From Chitinophagales bacterium (GTDB lineage: Bacteria > Bacteroidota > Bacteroidia > Chitinophagales > JADIYW01): a DNA stretch of 64,000 nt. Both the position numbers and the translations under genes were made by a program. The notes beneath the pieces were generated by a model. That model searched no databases and was not told the DNA's origin. It saw only the letters and a program-made list of their open reading frames with translations. Location of the stretch: assembly GCA_046329865.1 (NCBI GenBank), contig JAXLTW010000001.1, forward strand, positions 129,494 to 193,493. The letters are read 5' to 3'. Shown in pieces: positions 43,986 to 57,399 of this stretch; the first letter of the stretch is position 1; each line of letters begins with the position of its first letter.

Positions 43986-44036
43986 ATGAAATTAGTAGTC
44001 AGCCTATTTAATTGTTGCTGTGCAAACCCGCAATAG
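43986..44036 (+). CDS. candidate leader peptide MKLVVSLFNCCCANPQ (three consecutive Cys codons)
   Basis: ATG AAA TTA GTA GTC AGC CTA TTT AAT TGT TGC TGT GCA AAC CCG CAA TAG, read directly. It lies in the leader of the sulfite-reductase operon and is followed by a terminator. Below the ORF-track size cutoff. Confidence 0.45.
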   Translation: MKLVVSLFNCCCANPQ

Positions 44037-44066
44037 ACGGATAGGTCAATTATTATATAAAATTAC

Positions 44067-44097
44067 AAGCCTGTCCATTAACGACAGGCTTTTTTTG
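44067..44097 (+). terminator. intrinsic terminator / candidate attenuator upstream of the sulfite reductase gene
   Basis: AAGCCTGTC-cattaac-GACAGGCTT is a 9-bp stem followed by a T7 run. The 5' arm CCTGTCC can pair alternatively with GGATAGG (44039-44045). Confidence 0.8.
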
Positions 44098-44101
44098 TGA
44101 A

Positions 44102-44183
44102 TGTCATTTCGAGCGTAGCGAGAAATCTTGTTTTGAAGAAACACTTAAATGTAGCAAGACTCCTCACTTCTTTCGGAATAGCA
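44102..44183. repeat. palindromic element of the GTCATTTCGA...GAGAAATC family in the sulfite-reductase 5' leader
   Basis: The arm TGTCATTTCGAGCGTAGCGAGAAATC (44102-44127) has an inverted degenerate partner at 44158-44183 (reverse complement TGCTATTCCGAAAGAAGTGAGGAGTC). Confidence 0.7.
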
Positions 44184-44195
44184 AAAAGAAAAACT

Positions 44196-46319
44196 ATGAG
44201 CATCATCATTACTAAAAACATTTCACCGGAAGCAGCCAGGGATATCTTTGAGTTGCAGCAAAAAATCAATGCCTTTCAAAACGGCGAAATGCCCGAAGAC
44301 AAATTCAAAGCTTTCCGGCTCACCCGTGGTGTGTACGGGCAGCGGCAGCTGGGTGTCCAGATGTTCCGCACCAAATTTCCATTTGGAAAAATCACCCCAA
44401 AACAATTGGTGCGGGTGGCAGAATTGTCTGAACAATATGCCAGCAGCAACCTGCACTTAACTACCCGACAAAATATACAATTGCACTATGTGAAAGTAAC
44501 CGATGCACCGGCCATCTGGGCGGGTCTGGAAGACGTGGGTGCTACCGGCCGCGAAGCCTGCGGCAACACCGTTCGCAATATCACCGCCTCCTCCAGGGCA
44601 GGTATCGATCCGGATGAACCGTTTGATGTGGCACCATATGCCCGTGCCGCTTTCGAGTTTTTCCTGCGCAATCCGATTTGTCAGGATATGGGACGAAAAG
44701 TAAAGATTGCTTTTTCCTCTTCCGATAAAGACTCCGCCTATACTTTTCTCCACGATTTTGGTTTCATCCCGCGCATAGCAGACGACGAATGTGGTTTCAA
44801 AGTGGTCGTGGGCGGCGGACTGGGAGCACAGGCCATCCTGGCGCAGACCGCCTATGAATTTTTACACGAAGACCATGTGATTCCGTTTATGGAGGCCGCC
44901 TTGCGGGTATTTGACCGCTATGGGGAGCGCACCCGCCGTCATAAAGCCCGTATGAAATACCTGATTAAAGATATGGGCTTAGATAAATTTATGGAGCTCG
45001 TGGAAAAAGAACGCATCGCTAATAAAGTGAAGGAGTTCCGGGTGGATACCTCCTGTGTTGCGGATGGAGCACCCACTCACAACCACATTGCACCGCAGGT
45101 TGAAATTAAAAACCGGAAACGATATGAAGACTGGTTGAAGACGAATGTATTCGAACAAAAACAAGCCGGCTATTTTGCCGTAGCATTAAAAGTAACTAAA
45201 GGCGATATCAAACCCGATCAGGCACGCAAAATTGCGGAGATGGCGGAAAACTATGCTTCTGAAGATATGCGTATTACCATGAATCAGGGGTTATTGCTCA
45301 AATTTGTTCGAGAAGGCTCCTTGCCTTATCTCTTTCACGAATTGGACTTGATGGGGTTTGCGCATCCCGGATTTGATACGATTGCAGACGTAACCACCTG
45401 CCCGGGCACAGACACCTGCAACCTTGGTGTTACCAATAGCATGACTTTGGGCAAAGTGCTGGAAGAGGTAATTCAGGATGAATTCTACCATCTGATTTTC
45501 GACTCTGAAATTAAAATTAAAATCAGCGGCTGCATGAACTCCTGCGGACAACATATGGCAGCAAATATCGGACTGCACGGCAGCTCCATCAAAGTGGGCG
45601 AACTGGTAGCGCCCGCTATGCAGGTGGTGTTAGGCGGTGGCGTGGATATAAACGGGGTTGGCTCGGTGGGCGATAAAATCGTAAAACTACCGACAAAGAG
45701 AACTCCTGAAATGTTGCGTCTGATATTGAATGATTATGAGACCAACGGCAGCGAAGGTGAATATTTTAACGACTATTACCGCCGTCAGGGCAAGAACTAT
45801 TTTTATACGCTTTTAAAACCGCTGGCGAACGCAGATTTATATACCGATGATGATTTCATCGACTATGATGGCGTCGAACATTTCACACCTGAAATTGGGG
45901 TGGGCGAGTGCGCCGGTGTGATGTACGATATGGTAGGTCATATCATCAAAGATGCAGAAAACAAACACCTCGAGGCGACAGAACATCTGAAAATAAATAA
46001 ATATCCGGAAGCGATTTATTACGCCTACACCGGTTTTGTGATTGCGGCAAAAGCATTGCTGCTGAGTAAAGAGGTGGAATGCAATACACAGATTAAAATC
46101 TTAAAGGACTTTGATACGCATTTCGTACAGTCGGGAGCATTTATTATCGAAGGGGGTTTTGAAAATCTGGTACTAACCATCAATCAATACGAGCCGGAGA
46201 AAGAATTTGCAGAAAGTTATGTAACACATTTTCATCTGTTCCTGAAGAATGTGATTTCTTACAGAGAACAAAAAATGGGCGGTGACAAGCTGGTCATAGA
46301 AAGCAATTATAAAGCATAA
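44196..46319 (+). CDS. assimilatory sulfite (nitrite/sulfite) reductase hemoprotein, siroheme/4Fe-4S type, with an extra helical C-terminal domain
   Basis: 707 aa counted from ATG 44196 (MSIIITKN). Carries TTRQNIQLH, the cluster cysteines TTCPGTDTCNLG and SGCMNSCGQH, and two NirA/Sir half-domains. The last ~130 aa lie beyond the canonical core. Confidence 0.85.
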   Translation: MSIIITKNISPEAARDIFELQQKINAFQNGEMPEDKFKAFRLTRGVYGQRQLGVQMFRTKFPFGKITPKQLVRVAELSEQYASSNLHLTTRQNIQLHYVKVTDAPAIWAGLEDVGATGREACGNTVRNITASSRAGIDPDEPFDVAPYARAAFEFFLRNPICQDMGRKVKIAFSSSDKDSAYTFLHDFGFIPRIADDECGFKVVVGGGLGAQAILAQTAYEFLHEDHVIPFMEAALRVFDRYGERTRRHKARMKYLIKDMGLDKFMELVEKERIANKVKEFRVDTSCVADGAPTHNHIAPQVEIKNRKRYEDWLKTNVFEQKQAGYFAVALKVTKGDIKPDQARKIAEMAENYASEDMRITMNQGLLLKFVREGSLPYLFHELDLMGFAHPGFDTIADVTTCPGTDTCNLGVTNSMTLGKVLEEVIQDEFYHLIFDSEIKIKISGCMNSCGQHMAANIGLHGSSIKVGELVAPAMQVVLGGGVDINGVGSVGDKIVKLPTKRTPEMLRLILNDYETNGSEGEYFNDYYRRQGKNYFYTLLKPLANADLYTDDDFIDYDGVEHFTPEIGVGECAGVMYDMVGHIIKDAENKHLEATEHLKINKYPEAIYYAYTGFVIAAKALLLSKEVECNTQIKILKDFDTHFVQSGAFIIEGGFENLVLTINQYEPEKEFAESYVTHFHLFLKNVISYREQKMGGDKLVIESNYKA

Positions 46320-54760: not shown

Positions 54761-56010
54761 TTACCATCCGACCTTTTAAAGGACTTCGTCCGCGAAAAGA
54801 CATTACTGACAAGGTAGCAGCCAAACCATACGATGTTTTAAACTCTGCGGAAGCGAAAGAAGAAGCAAAAGACAATCCGTATTCTTTTCTGCACATATCA
54901 AAACCGGAAATCAATTTCGACCAACCGACAGATCAGTATGCGGATGCTGTTTATGAGAAAGGGAAAGAAATCTTCGAGCGGTTTATCAAAGAGGGCATCC
55001 TGGTCCGGGATGAAAAACGCTGTCTGTATATCTATGCACAAACGATGGATGGCAGAACACAAACCGGTTTGGTGGCAGGTAGTTCAATCGATGACTACTT
55101 TAACAACAAGATAAAAAAACACGAACTCACCCTGGTAGCAAAAGAGAATGACCGGATCCGGCACATGAAAACCAAGATGGCACAACCCGGCATGGTTTTT
55201 CTGACCTATAAGAGCGTTCCGGAGATTGATGCCATCATCGAACATTACTGCGGACACCATACTGCTGAAAATGATTTTATTGACTCACAAAACGTGCGTC
55301 ATCAGCTATGGAAAATTGACAACGAAAATATCATTGCCAAGCTGGTGGATTTGTTCCACGAAAAGGTACCTGCGAGTTATATCGCGGACGGACATCACCG
55401 TTCGGCAGCATCGGCAAAAGTTGGGCAACAATTAAGAGCTGAGCATCCGGATTATACCGGAAATGAGCCGTACAACTATTTTTTGTCGTGTCTTTTTCCA
55501 TCCAATCAACTGCAGATACAGGATTATAACCGCCTGGTAAAAGACATGAACGGACTTACCGAAGAAGAACTGCTGAGTAAGATTGGGGAGCAATTTGACA
55601 TTGAAAAAAAAGGCGCCTCCATTTATAAACCGACGCAACTGCACGAATTTTCGATGTATGTAAATGGTAACTGGTACAAACTGACTGCAAAGAAAAACAC
55701 CTATGATGAGCATGACCCGATTGGCGTATTGGATGTAACTATTTTAAGCAATAGTATATTGGACCCTGTTTTGGGTATCAAAGACCAGCGAACCGACAAA
55801 CGGATTGATTTTGTGGGTGGCATCCGAGGCCTGGGTGAGTTACAGAAGCGGGTGGATAGCGGCGAGATGAAAATCGCGTTTGCATTTTATCCCGTTTCCT
55901 TAGATCAGCTGATTGCAATAGCAGATACCGGAAATATTATGCCACCGAAATCCACCTGGTTTGAACCCAAACTGAAATCGGGATTGGTAATTAATTTGTT
56001 GAATGAATAA
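54757..56010 (+). CDS. DUF1015 domain-containing protein
   Basis: 417 aa. The N-terminus IRPFKGLRP...PYDVL and IADGHHR are typical. ATGA overlap with the peptidase gene. Confidence 0.8.
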   Translation: MITIRPFKGLRPRKDITDKVAAKPYDVLNSAEAKEEAKDNPYSFLHISKPEINFDQPTDQYADAVYEKGKEIFERFIKEGILVRDEKRCLYIYAQTMDGRTQTGLVAGSSIDDYFNNKIKKHELTLVAKENDRIRHMKTKMAQPGMVFLTYKSVPEIDAIIEHYCGHHTAENDFIDSQNVRHQLWKIDNENIIAKLVDLFHEKVPASYIADGHHRSAASAKVGQQLRAEHPDYTGNEPYNYFLSCLFPSNQLQIQDYNRLVKDMNGLTEEELLSKIGEQFDIEKKGASIYKPTQLHEFSMYVNGNWYKLTAKKNTYDEHDPIGVLDVTILSNSILDPVLGIKDQRTDKRIDFVGGIRGLGELQKRVDSGEMKIAFAFYPVSLDQLIAIADTGNIMPPKSTWFEPKLKSGLVINLLNE

Positions 56011-56017
56011 TTTTTTT

Positions 56018-56025
56018 TATCTTTA
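56018..56025 (+). promoter_or_regulatory. candidate promoter: -7 box TATCTTTA with -33 TTTG (55995-55998), 19-nt spacing
   Basis: 7/8 match to TAnnTTTG. It ends 4 nt before the ATG of the polycysteine sORF. Confidence 0.4.
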
Positions 56026-56029
56026 TTAT

Positions 56030-56071
56030 ATGAACCGGAAGAAAAATACGAAATGCTGCTGCACTTGCTGA
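56030..56071 (+). CDS. candidate leader peptide MNRKKNTKCCCTC (four Cys, three consecutive)
   Basis: ATG AAC CGG AAG AAA AAT ACG AAA TGC TGC TGC ACT TGC TGA, read directly. It lies in the leader of the Cys/Met-metabolism PLP enzyme gene and is followed by a terminator. Below the ORF-track size cutoff. Confidence 0.45.
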   Translation: MNRKKNTKCCCTC

Positions 56072-56103
56072 AGCGGTAATAGTATTTATAAATAATAAGA
56101 TTT

Positions 56104-56140
56104 AAAACCGCTTGTATTTTTTGCAGGCGGTTTTTTATTT
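56104..56140 (+). terminator. intrinsic terminator / candidate attenuator upstream of the transsulfuration gene
   Basis: AAACCGCTTG-9 nt-CAGGCGGTTT is a 10-bp stem with one G-U, followed by TTTTTTATTT. The 5' arm ACCGCTT can pair alternatively with AAGCGGT (56071-56077). Confidence 0.75.
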
Positions 56141-56153
56141 GGTAAATTTGAAT

Positions 56154-56213
56154 AGTTATTCTGAGCATAGTAAAGAATCTTTTGATGAGATTCCCGCTTT
56201 CGAGAGAATGACA
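56154..56213. repeat. palindromic element of the GTCATTCTGAGC...AGAATC family in the 5' leader
   Basis: Arms are AGTTATTCTGAGCATAGTAAAGAATC (56154-56179) and, inverted, TGTCATTCTCTCGAAAGCGGGAATCTC (reverse complement of 56187-56213). Confidence 0.7.
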
Positions 56214-56216
56214 ATA

Positions 56217-56251
56217 AAATACTTATTACTCAGTACTAATTACTAAATACT
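56217..56251. repeat. five phased heptamers NNNTACT (TACT at 56220, 56227, 56234, 56241, 56248)
   Basis: Read directly. The last unit ends 9 nt before ATG 56260. Same period-7 TACT pattern as 13051-13078. Confidence 0.85.
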
Positions 56252-56259
56252 AAACAACA

Positions 56260-57399
56260 ATGAAATTTGCAACCAAGGTCATTCATGCAGGCATAGAGCC
56301 GGACGCCACTTCAGGCGCTATCATGACGCCGATTTTCCAGACATCCACGTATGTGCAGGACGCACCCGGCGTACACAAAGGGTATGAATATGCCCGCACG
56401 CAAAACCCCACACGCAACGTACTGCAGAACCAGCTCGCCGCATTAGAAAACGGCAATTACGGAATCTGTTTTGCCAGCGGACTGGCGGCTACGGATGCGA
56501 TTGCCAAACTATTCAGCAGCGGCGATCATATTATTTCCTGCAATGATTTATACGGCGGCACCTATCGTATCTTCACCAAAGTATTCGGACGATTTGGTCT
56601 GGATTTTACATTTGTGGACATGACAGATGTAGCCAATATTGAAAAAGCGATTACCCCAAAAACAAAATTGATCTGGATTGAATCGCCGACCAATCCGATG
56701 CTGAATATTGTGGACATTGCGGCAGTTTGTTCTCTGGCCAGGAAGCACAATTTATTAGTTTGTGTTGACAACACCTTTGCATCCCCGTATTTGCAAACCC
56801 CGTTAGACATCGGTGCCGACATCGTTATCCATTCCGCCACAAAATATTTAGGCGGACACAGTGATGTGATACACGGCGCCATTGTAGTAAAAGAAAAGGC
56901 GCTGGCCGACCAGTTATATTTCCTTCAAAATGCATGCGGCGCCGTTCCGGGTCCGCAGGATTGTTTTTTAATTCTGCGAGGTATCAAAACCCTGCATATC
57001 CGGGTGGAACGCGCCTGTGAGAATGCAGAAAAGATTGCCACCTTTTTAAAGTCTCATCCAAAAGTGGAAAAAGTGAACTACCCCGGATTTGCCGAACACA
57101 AGGGGCATGAGATTGCAAAGAAGCAAATGAAAAAATTTGGGGCGATGGTGTCTTTCTCGTTGAAAGATGACAGCCTGCAAGCAGCCAATAAAGTTTTATC
57201 TTCCACCCATTTATTCTCACTGGCAGAATCATTGGGAGGCGTAGAGAGTTTGATCGGACATCCCGCCACCATGACACACGGAAGCATACCACTGGAAGAA
57301 CGCCAGAAAACAGGTGTGGTGGATTCCTTAATTCGTTTAAGCGTAGGTATTGAAGATGCCGACGATTTAATAGAAGATCTGAAAAAGGCATTGGGGTAA
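56260..57399 (+). CDS. Cys/Met-metabolism PLP-dependent enzyme (cystathionine gamma-synthase/gamma-lyase/beta-lyase family)
   Basis: 379 aa. Carries TKVIHAG, TPIFQTSTY and the PLP-lysine motif SATKYLGGHSD. Confidence 0.85.
   Translation: MKFATKVIHAGIEPDATSGAIMTPIFQTSTYVQDAPGVHKGYEYARTQNPTRNVLQNQLAALENGNYGICFASGLAATDAIAKLFSSGDHIISCNDLYGGTYRIFTKVFGRFGLDFTFVDMTDVANIEKAITPKTKLIWIESPTNPMLNIVDIAAVCSLARKHNLLVCVDNTFASPYLQTPLDIGADIVIHSATKYLGGHSDVIHGAIVVKEKALADQLYFLQNACGAVPGPQDCFLILRGIKTLHIRVERACENAEKIATFLKSHPKVEKVNYPGFAEHKGHEIAKKQMKKFGAMVSFSLKDDSLQAANKVLSSTHLFSLAESLGGVESLIGHPATMTHGSIPLEERQKTGVVDSLIRLSVGIEDADDLIEDLKKALG

What the first reader, a model, noticed from the sequence alone, without database searches (positions are those of the whole stretch)
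56018..56140. Second polycysteine leader ORF plus terminator/antiterminator, upstream of the Cys/Met-metabolism PLP enzyme
**Observed in the sequence**
- Just after the DUF1015 stop there is a promoter-like pair: TTTG at 55995-55998, a 19-nt spacer, then TATCTTTA at 56018-56025.
- The pair ends 4 nt before a 13-codon ORF, ATG AAC CGG AAG AAA AAT ACG AAA TGC TGC TGC ACT TGC TGA (MNRKKNTKCCCTC).
- AAGCGGT (56071-56077) overlaps the last base of the stop codon. It is perfectly complementary to ACCGCTT (56107-56113), the 5' arm of the downstream terminator.
- That terminator is AAACCGCTTG/CAGGCGGTTT plus a T-run. AAGCGGT also mimics its 3' arm.
- The gene 120 nt downstream is a cystathionine gamma-synthase/lyase-family enzyme.

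**Why it matters**
- Two unrelated peptide sequences share the same design: CCC codons, a terminator-arm mimic at the stop codon, an AT-rich spacer, then a terminator.
- Both precede sulfur-amino-acid genes. That is hard to explain by chance.
Basis: partly seen in the sequence, partly recalled or inferred. Interest (0 to 1): 0.85.

Follow-up and report, generated by a model that had tools for sequence, protein, structure and literature searches.

The report
Cysteine-sensing leader-peptide transcription attenuator
A 13-codon mini-gene with a run of cysteine codons, followed by a switchable transcription stop signal, sits in front of a likely cysteine-producing enzyme gene in a Chitinophagales bacterium; it looks like a classical amino-acid attenuator tuned to cysteine, a type not yet catalogued for this phylum.

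Summary

- **Conservation:** A homologous short ORF plus terminator precedes the same PLP gene in 12 further distinct sequences from relatives (81-94% enzyme identity), with four different upstream neighbours. The peptides diverge, but an in-frame run of 3-4 Cys codons persists with synonymous TGC/TGT changes.
- **Folding:** Free RNA pairs the Cys codons with AAGCGGU and forms the terminator. A ribosome stalled at the first Cys codon frees AAGCGGU to form an antiterminator (-9.7 to -19.4 kcal/mol). A ribosome at the stop codon abolishes it.
- **Start of the transcript:** A Bacteroidetes -7-type promoter box lies exactly 4 nt before the ATG in all 13 variants, which predicts a leaderless short ORF.
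- **Sister element:** An unrelated polycysteine leader precedes the sulfite reductase operon in the window and in all 8 relatives sampled.

Caveats:
- There is no compensatory covariation in this family.
- A conserved second promoter box follows the terminator.
- The element has been lost at least twice, and one sub-lineage lacks the start codon.

It is a new member of a known kind.

The parts
55995..55998 (+). TTTG, a possible -33 element of promoter P1. Support is weak and the spacing is not conserved in relatives.
   Evidence: The spacing to the box is 19 nt in the window and in L179 but 23 nt in L081.
56018..56025 (+). TATCTTTA, a Bacteroidetes sigma-A -7-type box (consensus TAnnTTTG) lying exactly 4 nt before the short ORF's ATG. 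This predicts that transcription starts at the A of AUG, giving a leaderless transcript.
   Evidence: a TAnnTT box plus a 4-nt spacer occurs in all 13 variants. The box occupies -12 to -5 in F. psychrophilum (PMC9723704).
56030..56071 (+). Leader short ORF encoding MNRKKNTKCCCTC plus TGA.
56054..56068 (+). Regulatory Cys codons: TGC TGC TGC (56054-62), then ACT, then TGC (56066-68). Bases 56054-56060 are also segment 1, which pairs with 56072-56078.
   Evidence: 86% of cells paired across 13 variants.
56071..56078 (+). Segment 2 (AAGCGGUA). It pairs either with the Cys codons (1:2) or with the 5' arm of the terminator, 56107-56113 (2:3, the antiterminator).
   Evidence: 91% of cells paired, against 23-48% in slid registers.
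56104..56140 (+). Intrinsic terminator: stem 56104-56116 / 56122-56134, with the T-run extending to 56140.
   Evidence: (96% of cells paired).
56143..56150 (+). TAAATTTG, a perfect -7 box, with TTTG 19 nt upstream at 56120-56123. This is the probable basal promoter P2 of the PLP gene.
   Evidence: The box is conserved in the leader-less relatives L192-L201 and L002.
56189..56212 (-). REP-like hairpin element (GTCATTCTCTCGAAAGCGGGAATC) in the 5' UTR. It is probably not part of the switch.
56260..57399 (+). Regulated gene: a Cys/Met-metabolism PLP enzyme, most similar to cystathionine gamma-lyases.
43986..44096 (+). Sister element. Short ORF MKLVVSLFNCCCANPQ (43986-44036), antiterminator strand GGATAGGT (44039-44046), and terminator 44067-44096. 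It lies upstream of sulfite reductase (44196-46319), cobA and the cysG N-terminal domain gene.

Best explanation
This is a ribosome-mediated (leader-peptide) transcription attenuator specific for cysteine, placed in front of a likely cystathionine gamma-lyase gene.

**Proposed sequence of events**
1. Transcription starts at promoter P1, probably at the A of the AUG, so the short ORF would be leaderless. Alternatively, transcripts read in from the DUF1015 gene upstream.
2. A ribosome translates the 13-codon ORF while RNA polymerase transcribes the next 70 nt.
3. When Cys-tRNA(Cys) is plentiful, the ribosome reaches the UGA and covers AAGCGGU, which begins at the last base of the stop codon. The terminator (56104-56134 plus the U-run) forms and the transcript ends.
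4. When Cys-tRNA(Cys) is scarce, the ribosome stalls at the first of the three consecutive Cys codons.
   - This keeps segment 1 (the Cys codons) out of the 1:2 hairpin but leaves AAGCGGU exposed.
   - AAGCGGU pairs with ACCGCUU, the 5' arm of the terminator. The terminator cannot form, and polymerase reads into the PLP gene.
5. With no translation at all, 1:2 and 3:4 both form and transcription terminates.

**Expected outcome:** read-through from P1 adds to basal expression from a second promoter, P2, just after the terminator. More enzyme that releases cysteine from cystathionine would then be made when cysteine runs short.

**Shown versus inferred**
- Shown here: the sequence anatomy, its conservation, and the thermodynamic feasibility of the three states.
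- Inferred: promoter use, leaderless initiation, coupling of ribosome and polymerase, the response to cysteine, and the enzyme's direction of action.
For: **Conservation with the gene**
- A homologous element precedes the orthologous PLP gene in 12 further distinct sequences (L001, L081-L084, L179, L182-L184, L187, L189, L190).
- Upstream neighbours differ: DUF1015, PhyH on the opposite strand, MauE, or a ParE cassette. The element therefore travels with the PLP gene and not with DUF1015.

**The Cys run behaves as coding sequence**
- Peptides diverge: MNRKKNTKCCCTC, MKSKKNMNCCCFYLISGE, MKATNNNIKCCCINDKR, MKTTKNYIICCCIER, MKFISGFICCCCPLVLGKHE, MTIRKNSFCFCCFTNKSKWKKSV.
- The Cys run is kept, with TGC/TGT synonymous changes.
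- The ATG is 24 or 27 nt upstream of the run, always in frame.

**Folding**
- Constrained folds of 9 PLP-leader variants plus the sister element give the same three states.
- Antiterminator energy is -9.7 to -19.4 kcal/mol with a ribosome at the first Cys codon, and 0 to -1.4 with a ribosome at the stop codon.
- The antiterminator state was tested against shuffles for seven sequences (six variants plus the sister element) and is more stable than the shuffle mean in all seven. In six of them at most 28 of 500 shuffles reached the observed energy.

**Helix conservation**
- 91%, 86% and 96% of cells are paired for 2:3, 1:2 and 3:4, against 22-71% in slid registers.

**Sister element**
- It lies upstream of sulfite reductase/siroheme genes and is present in all 8 relatives sampled (93-69% identity).
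- Its terminator covaries (CCTGTC/GACAGG, CCTATC/GATAGG, CCTTTC/GAAAGG) and every copy has an antiterminator.

**Specificity and regulatory logic**
- In about 1.2 Mb of held loci, 15 of 16 distinct hits for a Cys-run short ORF plus terminator lie at these two genes.
- The closest solved homologues of the enzyme are mostly cystathionine gamma-lyases, so induction on cysteine starvation makes sense.
Against: - **No covariation:** none of the three helices in the PLP family shows a compensatory (two-sided) change. Structural support rests on conservation and energetics among close relatives.
- **Weak antiterminator in the window:** it has only 7 bp across a 29-nt loop (-9.7 kcal/mol; 28 of 500 shuffles reach it), against a terminator state of about -20 kcal/mol.
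- **A second promoter:** a perfect promoter-like site (TTTG, 19 nt, TAAATTTG; 56120-56150) follows the terminator. Its box is conserved even in relatives that lack the leader. The gene can therefore probably be expressed without read-through.
- **Evolutionary lability:**
  - The element is deleted in L002 and in L192-L201, where only a remnant of the 3' arm is left.
  - The start codon is AAG or AAT in the ParE-context sub-lineage (L082, L182, L183, L191).
  - The element is absent from every relative below 81% enzyme identity.
- **Imperfect P1 box:** the window's box (TATCTTTA) lacks the consensus final G.
- **Enzyme direction unproven:** NCBIfam's only passing model is named cystathionine gamma-synthase, an enzyme that would consume cysteine.
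- **No expression data** of any kind.
Confidence: 0.68

Rival explanations
1. The short ORF and terminator form an independent small gene encoding a Cys-rich micropeptide, for example a metal- or redox-active peptide. The PLP gene is expressed only from P2, and the two are merely neighbours.
For: - The short ORF has its own promoter-like box, and a strong terminator follows it directly.
- A conserved promoter box lies after the terminator.
- Leader-less relatives evidently express the gene without the element.
Against: - Apart from the Cys run, the peptide sequence is not conserved, and its length varies from 13 to 23 residues.
- The strand at the stop codon that mimics the terminator's 3' arm is conserved, or replaced by an equivalent in another register in L001 and L084.
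- The same design recurs, with an unrelated peptide, in front of sulfite reductase, where no second promoter box is seen.
- The element keeps its association with the PLP gene across four different upstream contexts.
Confidence: 0.1
2. The hairpin is simply the terminator of the S41 protease-DUF1015 operon. The short ORF between stop codon and terminator is fortuitous.
For: - In the window the terminator is the first one after the DUF1015 stop, 94 nt downstream.
- It has an A-run on one side and a T-run on the other, like a generic bidirectional terminator.
Against: - The same short ORF plus terminator occurs where DUF1015 is not the upstream gene: L001 (divergent PhyH), L084 (MauE) and L082/L182 (ParE cassette).
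- DUF1015-PLP neighbours at 77% identity (L005, L007) lack it.
- Shuffles give a Cys-run short ORF in 1 of 5000 trials.
Confidence: 0.05
3. The element was a working attenuator in an ancestor, but in this lineage it is a decaying or redundant relic. Expression of the PLP gene is now governed by P2 and other regulators.
For: - Repeated loss: L002 and L192-L201.
- Loss of the start codon in one sub-lineage while the rest of the element is still intact.
- Restriction to a shallow clade, and conservation of P2.
Against: - In the window every part is intact and identical in 10 independent assemblies.
- Seven lineages with intact ATG keep the Cys run, the stop-codon position relative to segment 2, and the terminator, despite many substitutions and in-frame indels elsewhere in the ORF.
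Confidence: 0.12
4. Ribosome stalling at the Cys codons acts on translation or mRNA stability, as in mycobacteria, and not on transcription termination.
For: The best-studied polycysteine short ORF (M. smegmatis Ms5788A) works by unmasking a ribosome-binding site (bioRxiv 10.1101/834739).
Against: - A canonical G+C-rich hairpin plus a U-run of 6 or more is conserved in all variants.
- The PLP start codon is 120 nt further on and is not part of any conserved pairing with the leader.
- Bacteroidetes generally lack Shine-Dalgarno-dependent initiation (PMC9723704).
Confidence: 0.04

Closest known systems
Classical leader-peptide attenuators of enterobacterial amino-acid operons (trp, his, leu, thr, pheA)
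   Same: - A short ORF with tandem codons for the sensed amino acid.
- Three alternative helices (1:2, 2:3, 3:4).
- Regulatory codons lie inside segment 1, and the stop codon abuts segment 2.
- An intrinsic terminator lies ahead of a gene of the same pathway.

This comparison rests on established knowledge; the geometry was checked.
   Different: - It senses cysteine. None of the classical enterobacterial attenuators named here senses cysteine.
- It is in Bacteroidota, which have no Shine-Dalgarno-based initiation.
- The short ORF is apparently leaderless.
- A second promoter lies after the terminator.
- There is no sequence homology: Rfam His_leader scores 20 bits against a gathering score of 49.
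Mycobacterial polycysteine leaderless short ORFs, the 'Cys ribulon' (Canestrari et al. 2020, bioRxiv 10.1101/834739 / Mol Microbiol 114:93)
   Same: - Unannotated short ORFs with 3 or more consecutive Cys codons, at or very near the 5' end of the transcript.
- They lie in front of several cysteine-metabolism loci in one genome.
- They arose independently at each locus.
   Different: - The mycobacterial Ms5788A acts on translation by unmasking the ribosome-binding site and has no terminator. Here a canonical intrinsic terminator is the output.
- The phylum differs.
- Leaderless status here is inferred from promoter-box spacing only.
uORFC-8-2 motif upstream of cysS in Rhodobacterales (PMC8632094)
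   Same: A predicted ribosome-mediated transcription attenuator with tandem Cys codons (UGC, sometimes UGU) inside the first stem, and a terminator with a U-run.
   Different: - It has two Cys codons, at about positions 14-15.
- It controls the cysteinyl-tRNA synthetase gene in Alphaproteobacteria.
- It is unrelated in sequence, and here the targets are cysteine-supply enzymes.
Candidate Cys leader peptides upstream of cys/cbs operons in Actinobacteria (Seliverstov et al. 2005, PMC1262725)
   Same: Short ORFs with runs of Cys codons near the stop codon, upstream of cysteine-synthesis genes.
   Different: Those lack terminator hairpins, and Rho-dependent termination was proposed for them. Here the terminator and antiterminator are explicit.
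Leader-peptide attenuation elements predicted in Bacteroidetes: hisG and ilvE of Flavobacterium psychrophilum (PMC9723704) and the Bacteroid-trp motif RF01692 (PMC2864571)
   Same: They are in the same phylum and of the same general mechanism.
   Different: - They sense His, Ile or Trp, not Cys.
- The hisG leader has a 5' UTR of about 14 nt and is not leaderless.
- There is no Rfam match here.

Membership tests
Leader-peptide (ribosome-mediated) transcription attenuator | A short ORF with start and stop codons upstream of, and on the same strand as, the regulated gene | tested here: met
   - ATG 56030 to TGA 56071.
- The ATG is retained in 9 of 13 distinct variants.
- Four variants from one sub-lineage have AAG or AAT instead.
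Leader-peptide (ribosome-mediated) transcription attenuator | Tandem codons for the sensed amino acid, conserved as codons | tested here: met
   - Three to four Cys codons in every variant (four residues in the window, three of them consecutive).
- TGC/TGT synonymous changes only.
- The run is always in frame with the stop codon, and with the start codon where one is present.
Leader-peptide (ribosome-mediated) transcription attenuator | An intrinsic terminator between the ORF and the gene | tested here: met
   A 13-bp stem plus T-run. 96% of cells are paired across 13 variants.
Leader-peptide (ribosome-mediated) transcription attenuator | A mutually exclusive antiterminator whose 5' strand is occluded by a ribosome at the stop codon but free when the ribosome stalls at the regulatory codons | tested here: met
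   - Constrained folds: -9.7 to -19.4 kcal/mol against 0 to -1.4 kcal/mol.
- 91% of cells are paired.
- The state is more stable than shuffles.
- There is no two-sided covariation in this family.
Leader-peptide (ribosome-mediated) transcription attenuator | Compensatory covariation supporting the helices | tested here: not met
   - No pair has changes on both sides in 1:2, 2:3 or 3:4 for the PLP family. The sequences are too similar.
- Covariation is present in the terminator of the sister sulfite-reductase family.
Leader-peptide (ribosome-mediated) transcription attenuator | The regulated gene belongs to the pathway of the sensed amino acid | tested here: inconclusive
   - It is a Cys_Met_Meta_PP enzyme.
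- The nearest solved structures are mostly cystathionine gamma-lyases.
- The only NCBIfam model above its cut-off is named cystathionine gamma-synthase.
- Downstream genes are unrelated to sulfur.
Leader-peptide (ribosome-mediated) transcription attenuator | Read-through responds to the supply of the amino acid or its charged tRNA | not testable with these tools
   This needs Term-seq, reporter assays or in vitro transcription-translation.
Mycobacterial polycysteine leaderless short ORF attenuators | The transcript begins at the start codon of the short ORF (leaderless) | tested here: inconclusive
   - A TAnnTT box lies exactly 4 nt before the ATG in all 13 variants.
- The box occupies -12 to -5 in F. 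psychrophilum.
- No transcription-start data are available.
Mycobacterial polycysteine leaderless short ORF attenuators | [quoted passage not shown] | tested here: not met
   - The output element is an intrinsic terminator.
- The PLP start codon lies 120 nt beyond it and does not pair with the leader.
Any curated Rfam family (His_leader, Bacteroid-trp, T-box, SAM riboswitches and others) | A score at or above the family's gathering threshold | tested here: not met
   - No hits in the whole window at gathering thresholds.
- In 55950-56300 only sub-threshold, terminator-driven hits appear, the best being 26 bits against a gathering score of 59.

The most novel reading that the evidence does not exclude
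Chitinophagales may run a cysteine 'ribulon' that evolved independently of the mycobacterial one. In it, leaderless polycysteine short ORFs gate intrinsic terminators at several sulfur loci: sulfite reductase/siroheme, cystathionine gamma-lyase, and perhaps more.

In at least one genome (JAXLTY01) the same device sits directly in front of the tRNA-Cys and tRNA-Phe genes. Its leader interleaves Phe and Cys codons (SFCFCCF). Transcription of tRNA genes would then be feedback-controlled by how fast ribosomes decode the very codons those tRNAs read.
Probability: 0.25. Interest if true: 0.7.

Novelty: new member of a known kind. Interest (0 to 1): 0.45.

Why it matters
Regulation of sulfur assimilation in Bacteroidota is poorly charted. 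Neither Rfam nor the literature I could search describes a cysteine-specific attenuator in this phylum.

If confirmed, these elements would:
- give an annotation rule (a polycysteine short ORF plus a terminator) that marks cysteine-responsive genes in Chitinophagales metagenomes;
- add a second, independent case of a regulon coordinated by ribosome stalling at Cys codons, alongside mycobacteria, this time with transcription termination as the output;
- provide a compact cysteine-responsive part, of about 110 nt, for engineering Bacteroidota.

The apparent leaderless start is also a useful test case. It asks how ribosome-polymerase coupling is set up in a phylum without Shine-Dalgarno initiation.

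Tried and rejected
**Alternatives rejected**
- **Overlapping frame (ATG 56053, MLLHLLKR).** The ATG exists only where the codon before the Cys run ends in A (the window and L081). It is absent in L001, L083, L084, L179 and L184.
- **Longer in-frame ORF from ATG 56003.** It is closed by a stop codon in L179.
- **Neutral (TGC)n microsatellite.** Ten assemblies are identical. In relatives the run mixes TGT and TGC, and the ORF frame is kept.
- **The 87-aa minus-strand ORF 55905-56168 that gene callers annotate.** It has no Pfam hit and is not called in relatives.
- **Known RNA family.** No Rfam hit.

**Searches that led nowhere**
- More distant leader copies upstream of the PLP gene were sought in 160 loci at 64-90% identity. 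None appeared below 81%. The few Cys-run hits (L018, L066, L071, L116 and others) lie inside coding genes or upstream of the promoter.
- Covariation analysis of the PLP family found nothing, because the sequences are too similar.
- Literature searches for a Bacteroidota Cys leader found none.

**Not attempted**
- No covariance model was built, because the direct scans already covered all held sequence.
Full report
**1. The observation**

Reading 55800-56400 confirms every stated element.
- The DUF1015 gene ends at 56010.
- TTTG lies at 55995-98 and TATCTTTA at 56018-25, followed by four bases.
- The ORF runs ATG AAC CGG AAG AAA AAT ACG AAA TGC TGC TGC ACT TGC TGA (56030-56071).
- AAGCGGT lies at 56071-77.
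- The terminator scan finds the stem 56104-56134 (13 pairs, 5 G-C) followed by a T-run.
- The next gene (56260-57399) is a Cys_Met_Meta_PP enzyme, E 2e-161.

The feature is unlikely to arise by chance.
- Shuffling the 136 nt ahead of the terminator gives an ATG short ORF with a Cys run in 1 of 5000 trials.
- Only 7 of 864 six-frame short ORFs in the window have such a run.
- Two of the five strict + strand terminators in the window are preceded by one, and both lie in front of sulfur genes.

**2. What the RNA can do**

The unconstrained fold of 56026-56145 (-33.8 kcal/mol, z = -4.15) contains the terminator. The Cys codons UGCUGCU (56054-60) pair with AGCGGUA (56072-78). That second strand is the same one that can instead pair with ACCGCUU (56107-13), the 5' arm of the terminator. 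This gives the classical 1:2 / 2:3 / 3:4 arrangement, with the regulatory codons inside segment 1 and the stop codon abutting segment 2.

I modelled ribosome occupancy by forbidding pairing up to 14 nt past the A-site codon.
- With the ribosome at the first Cys codon and the transcript ending just before the terminator's 3' arm, the best structure is the 2:3 antiterminator. Its energy is -9.7 kcal/mol in the window and -11.3 to -19.4 kcal/mol in relatives.
- With the ribosome at the stop codon, nothing forms (0 to -1.4 kcal/mol), and the full transcript folds into the terminator.
- In a shuffle test of seven sequences (six variants plus the sister element), the antiterminator state was more stable than the mean of shuffled spacers in all seven. 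For six of them, 0 to 28 of 500 shuffles reached the observed energy. For L084 the figure was 83 of 500.

**3. Relatives**

One scan each of the genome and metagenome collections with the PLP protein returned 160 loci at 64-90% identity. Look-ups of near relatives added more.

A homologous leader is present in 13 distinct sequences in all:

| Source | Enzyme identity | Leader peptide |
|---|---|---|
| window | 100% | MNRKKNTKCCCTC |
| L179-181 | 94% | MKSKKNMNCCCFYLISGE |
| L081 | 90% | MKATNNNIKCCCINDKR |
| L083 | 89% | MKTTKNYIICCCIER |
| L184-190 | 91% | MKTTKNYNICCCIER/IDR, MKTTKKYHLCCCIER |
| L001 | 90% | MTIRKNSFCFCCFTNKSKWKKSV |
| L084 | 81% | MKFISGFICCCCPLVLGKHE |
| L082, L182, L183/L191 | 90-91% | start codon lost |

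- The peptides share little beyond a Lys/Asn-rich start and the Cys run.
- The run uses TGC and TGT interchangeably.
- The distance from the ATG to the first Cys codon is 24 or 27 nt.
- The stop codon either abuts segment 2 or lies a few codons beyond it.
- In L001 and L084 the antiterminator uses a different register (GCAAGUGG with CCGCUUGC; GGCAAGC with GCUUGCC), but the same three-state behaviour results.
- Ten independent assemblies carrying the identical enzyme have a 100% identical leader. The TGC run therefore does not behave as a length-variable microsatellite.
- The upstream neighbour is DUF1015 in the window, L081, L083, L179 and L184. It is a divergent PhyH gene in L001, MauE in L084 and a ParE cassette in L082/L182. 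The element belongs to the PLP gene and not to the gene before it.

**4. Promoter and a probable leaderless start**

In all 13 variants a TAnnTT(T/C/A)(G/A) box ends exactly 4 nt before the start-codon position. Examples are TATCTTTA-TTAT-ATG, TATCTTTG-CAAC-ATG, TAACTTCA-AACT-ATG and TAAATTCA-CATT-ATG. In Flavobacterium psychrophilum the sigma-A box TAnnTTTG occupies -12 to -5 (PMC9723704). That places +1 on the A of the AUG.

Leaderless mRNAs are a small minority in this phylum. They make up 5.5% of the mRNAs examined in F. psychrophilum, and about 3.7% of B. thetaiotaomicron 5' UTRs are shorter than 10 nt. The recurrence here is therefore notable, but it remains an inference. In the window, transcripts reading through from DUF1015 would also enter the leader.

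**5. The sister element**

The first locus (short ORF 43986-44036, MKLVVSLFNCCCANPQ; terminator 44067-44096) precedes a NirA/Sir-type sulfite reductase, cobA and the cysG N-terminal domain gene.

I sampled eight relatives of the reductase from 93% down to 69% identity, in three different upstream contexts. All eight carry a polycysteine short ORF plus terminator:
- MQLIINLYNCCCSCPQ (same genome as L001)
- MKVSVSLFNCCCVCPQ
- MKLSVSLYNCCCVCPH
- MKLIVSLSNCCCFCPQ
- MNLIINLCNCCCSISK
- MKSKFNRCNCCCVCPL
- MLMKNTAICCCCCRVYTRIR
- MKSMYKQTNYFFCCCSFKI

In this family the terminator covaries: CCTGTC/GACAGG, CCTATC/GATAGG and CCTTTC/GAAAGG. Each copy has an antiterminator of 8-15 bp that starts at or just after the stop codon. 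A -7-type box lies 4-6 nt before the ATG in seven of the nine copies.

The two leader families share no sequence beyond the Cys codons, so they probably arose independently.

Across about 1.2 Mb of held loci, 15 of 16 distinct hits for a Cys-run short ORF plus terminator fall at these two genes.

**6. What weakens the case for this particular locus**

- The three helices are conserved: 91%, 86% and 96% of cells paired, against 22-71% in slid registers. None shows a two-sided compensatory change, because the sequences are too alike.
- Directly after the terminator lies TTTG, 19 nt, TAAATTTG (56120-56150).
  - TAnnTTTG is not enriched in the window overall (61 found, 62.9 expected).
  - This particular box is nevertheless conserved as TAACTTTG or TATTTTTG in leader-bearing relatives.
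  - It is also conserved, as TAAATTTG, in relatives that have lost the leader (L002, L192-L201), where only a remnant of the terminator's 3' arm remains.
  - It is therefore probably the gene's basal promoter, P2, and the attenuator would gate only the extra transcription arriving from upstream.
- The element is confined to enzymes of at least 81% identity. It has been deleted at least twice, and it has lost its start codon (AAG or AAT) in the ParE-context sub-lineage.
- The enzyme's direction of action is not proven.
  - The closest solved structures are mostly cystathionine gamma-lyases, which fits induction on cysteine starvation.
  - The only NCBIfam model passed is named cystathionine gamma-synthase.

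**7. Comparison with what is known**

- Rfam has nothing here at gathering thresholds. Below threshold there are only terminator-driven matches.
- Polycysteine leaders have precedent.
  - Candidate Cys leader peptides without terminators occur in Actinobacteria (PMC1262725).
  - Leaderless polycysteine short ORFs in M. smegmatis are experimentally validated and act on translation (bioRxiv 10.1101/834739).
  - The uORFC-8-2 motif in Rhodobacterales has tandem Cys codons plus a terminator upstream of cysS (PMC8632094).
- In Bacteroidetes, leader-peptide attenuation has been proposed for hisG and ilvE (PMC9723704). A Bacteroid-trp motif is listed in PMC2864571.
- I found no description of a cysteine attenuator in this phylum.

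The element works like a classical attenuator and resembles the mycobacterial system in its sensor, a leaderless polycysteine short ORF. It differs from that system in its output, and it is homologous to none of the known examples.

**8. Verdict**

The element is best filed as a new member of a known kind: a cysteine-specific, probably leaderless, leader-peptide transcription attenuator in Chitinophagales.

My confidence that this locus functions that way is about 0.65-0.7. The mechanism class is better supported at the sulfite reductase locus than here. Interest is moderate. The element is not surprising in principle, but it is uncatalogued, recurs convergently, and comes with one intriguing offshoot: the tRNA-Cys/tRNA-Phe arrangement in L001.

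Noticed in passing
L001:3674-3958 (JAXLTY010000001, Chitinophagales MAG): The homologous leader here interleaves Phe and Cys codons (MTIRKNSFCFCCFTNKSKWKKSV). Its terminator ends 6 nt before tRNA-Cys(GCA), which is followed by tRNA-Phe(GAA) and then the PLP gene. The only promoter-like box ahead of the tRNAs is the leader's perfect TATCTTTG. This may be attenuation control of tRNA genes for the amino acids encoded in the leader. It is a single case.
   Followed up: partly
window 56120-56150: A perfect Bacteroidetes promoter-like site (TTTG, 19 nt, TAAATTTG) lies immediately after the terminator. The box is conserved even in relatives without the leader (L002, L192-L201). It is probably the PLP gene's basal promoter.
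   Followed up: partly
window 44103-44126 (+) and 56189-56212 (-): A REP-like hairpin element (GTCATT...GAATC/AAAT) lies between terminator and start codon at both Cys-leader loci. These are the only two copies in the window. Similar elements occur at the same place in L172, L173, L176 and L083 but not in all relatives.
   Followed up: partly
window 43986-44096 and L171-L178: The polycysteine leader upstream of sulfite reductase/cobA/cysG is present in all 8 relatives sampled (93-69% identity). Its peptide is fairly conserved (M-K-L-x-V-S-L-x-N-C-C-C-x-C-P-Q) and its terminator covaries.
   Followed up: yes
window 55905-56168 (-): Gene callers annotate an 87-aa minus-strand ORF across the DUF1015 3' end and the leader, in contigs identical to the window. 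It has no Pfam hit and is not called in relatives, so it is probably spurious.
   Followed up: partly
L082:761, L182:1020, L183:1021, L191: In relatives where a ParE-toxin cassette replaces DUF1015 upstream, the short ORF start codon reads AAG or AAT. The Cys codons, antiterminator and terminator are intact. This is either a recently disabled leader or sequence divergence at the promoter-start junction.
   Followed up: partly
L007:3700-4000: The intergenic region between DUF1015 and the PLP gene in this 77% relative is filled with tandem GAATGAA(A/G)G repeats instead of a leader.
   Followed up: no
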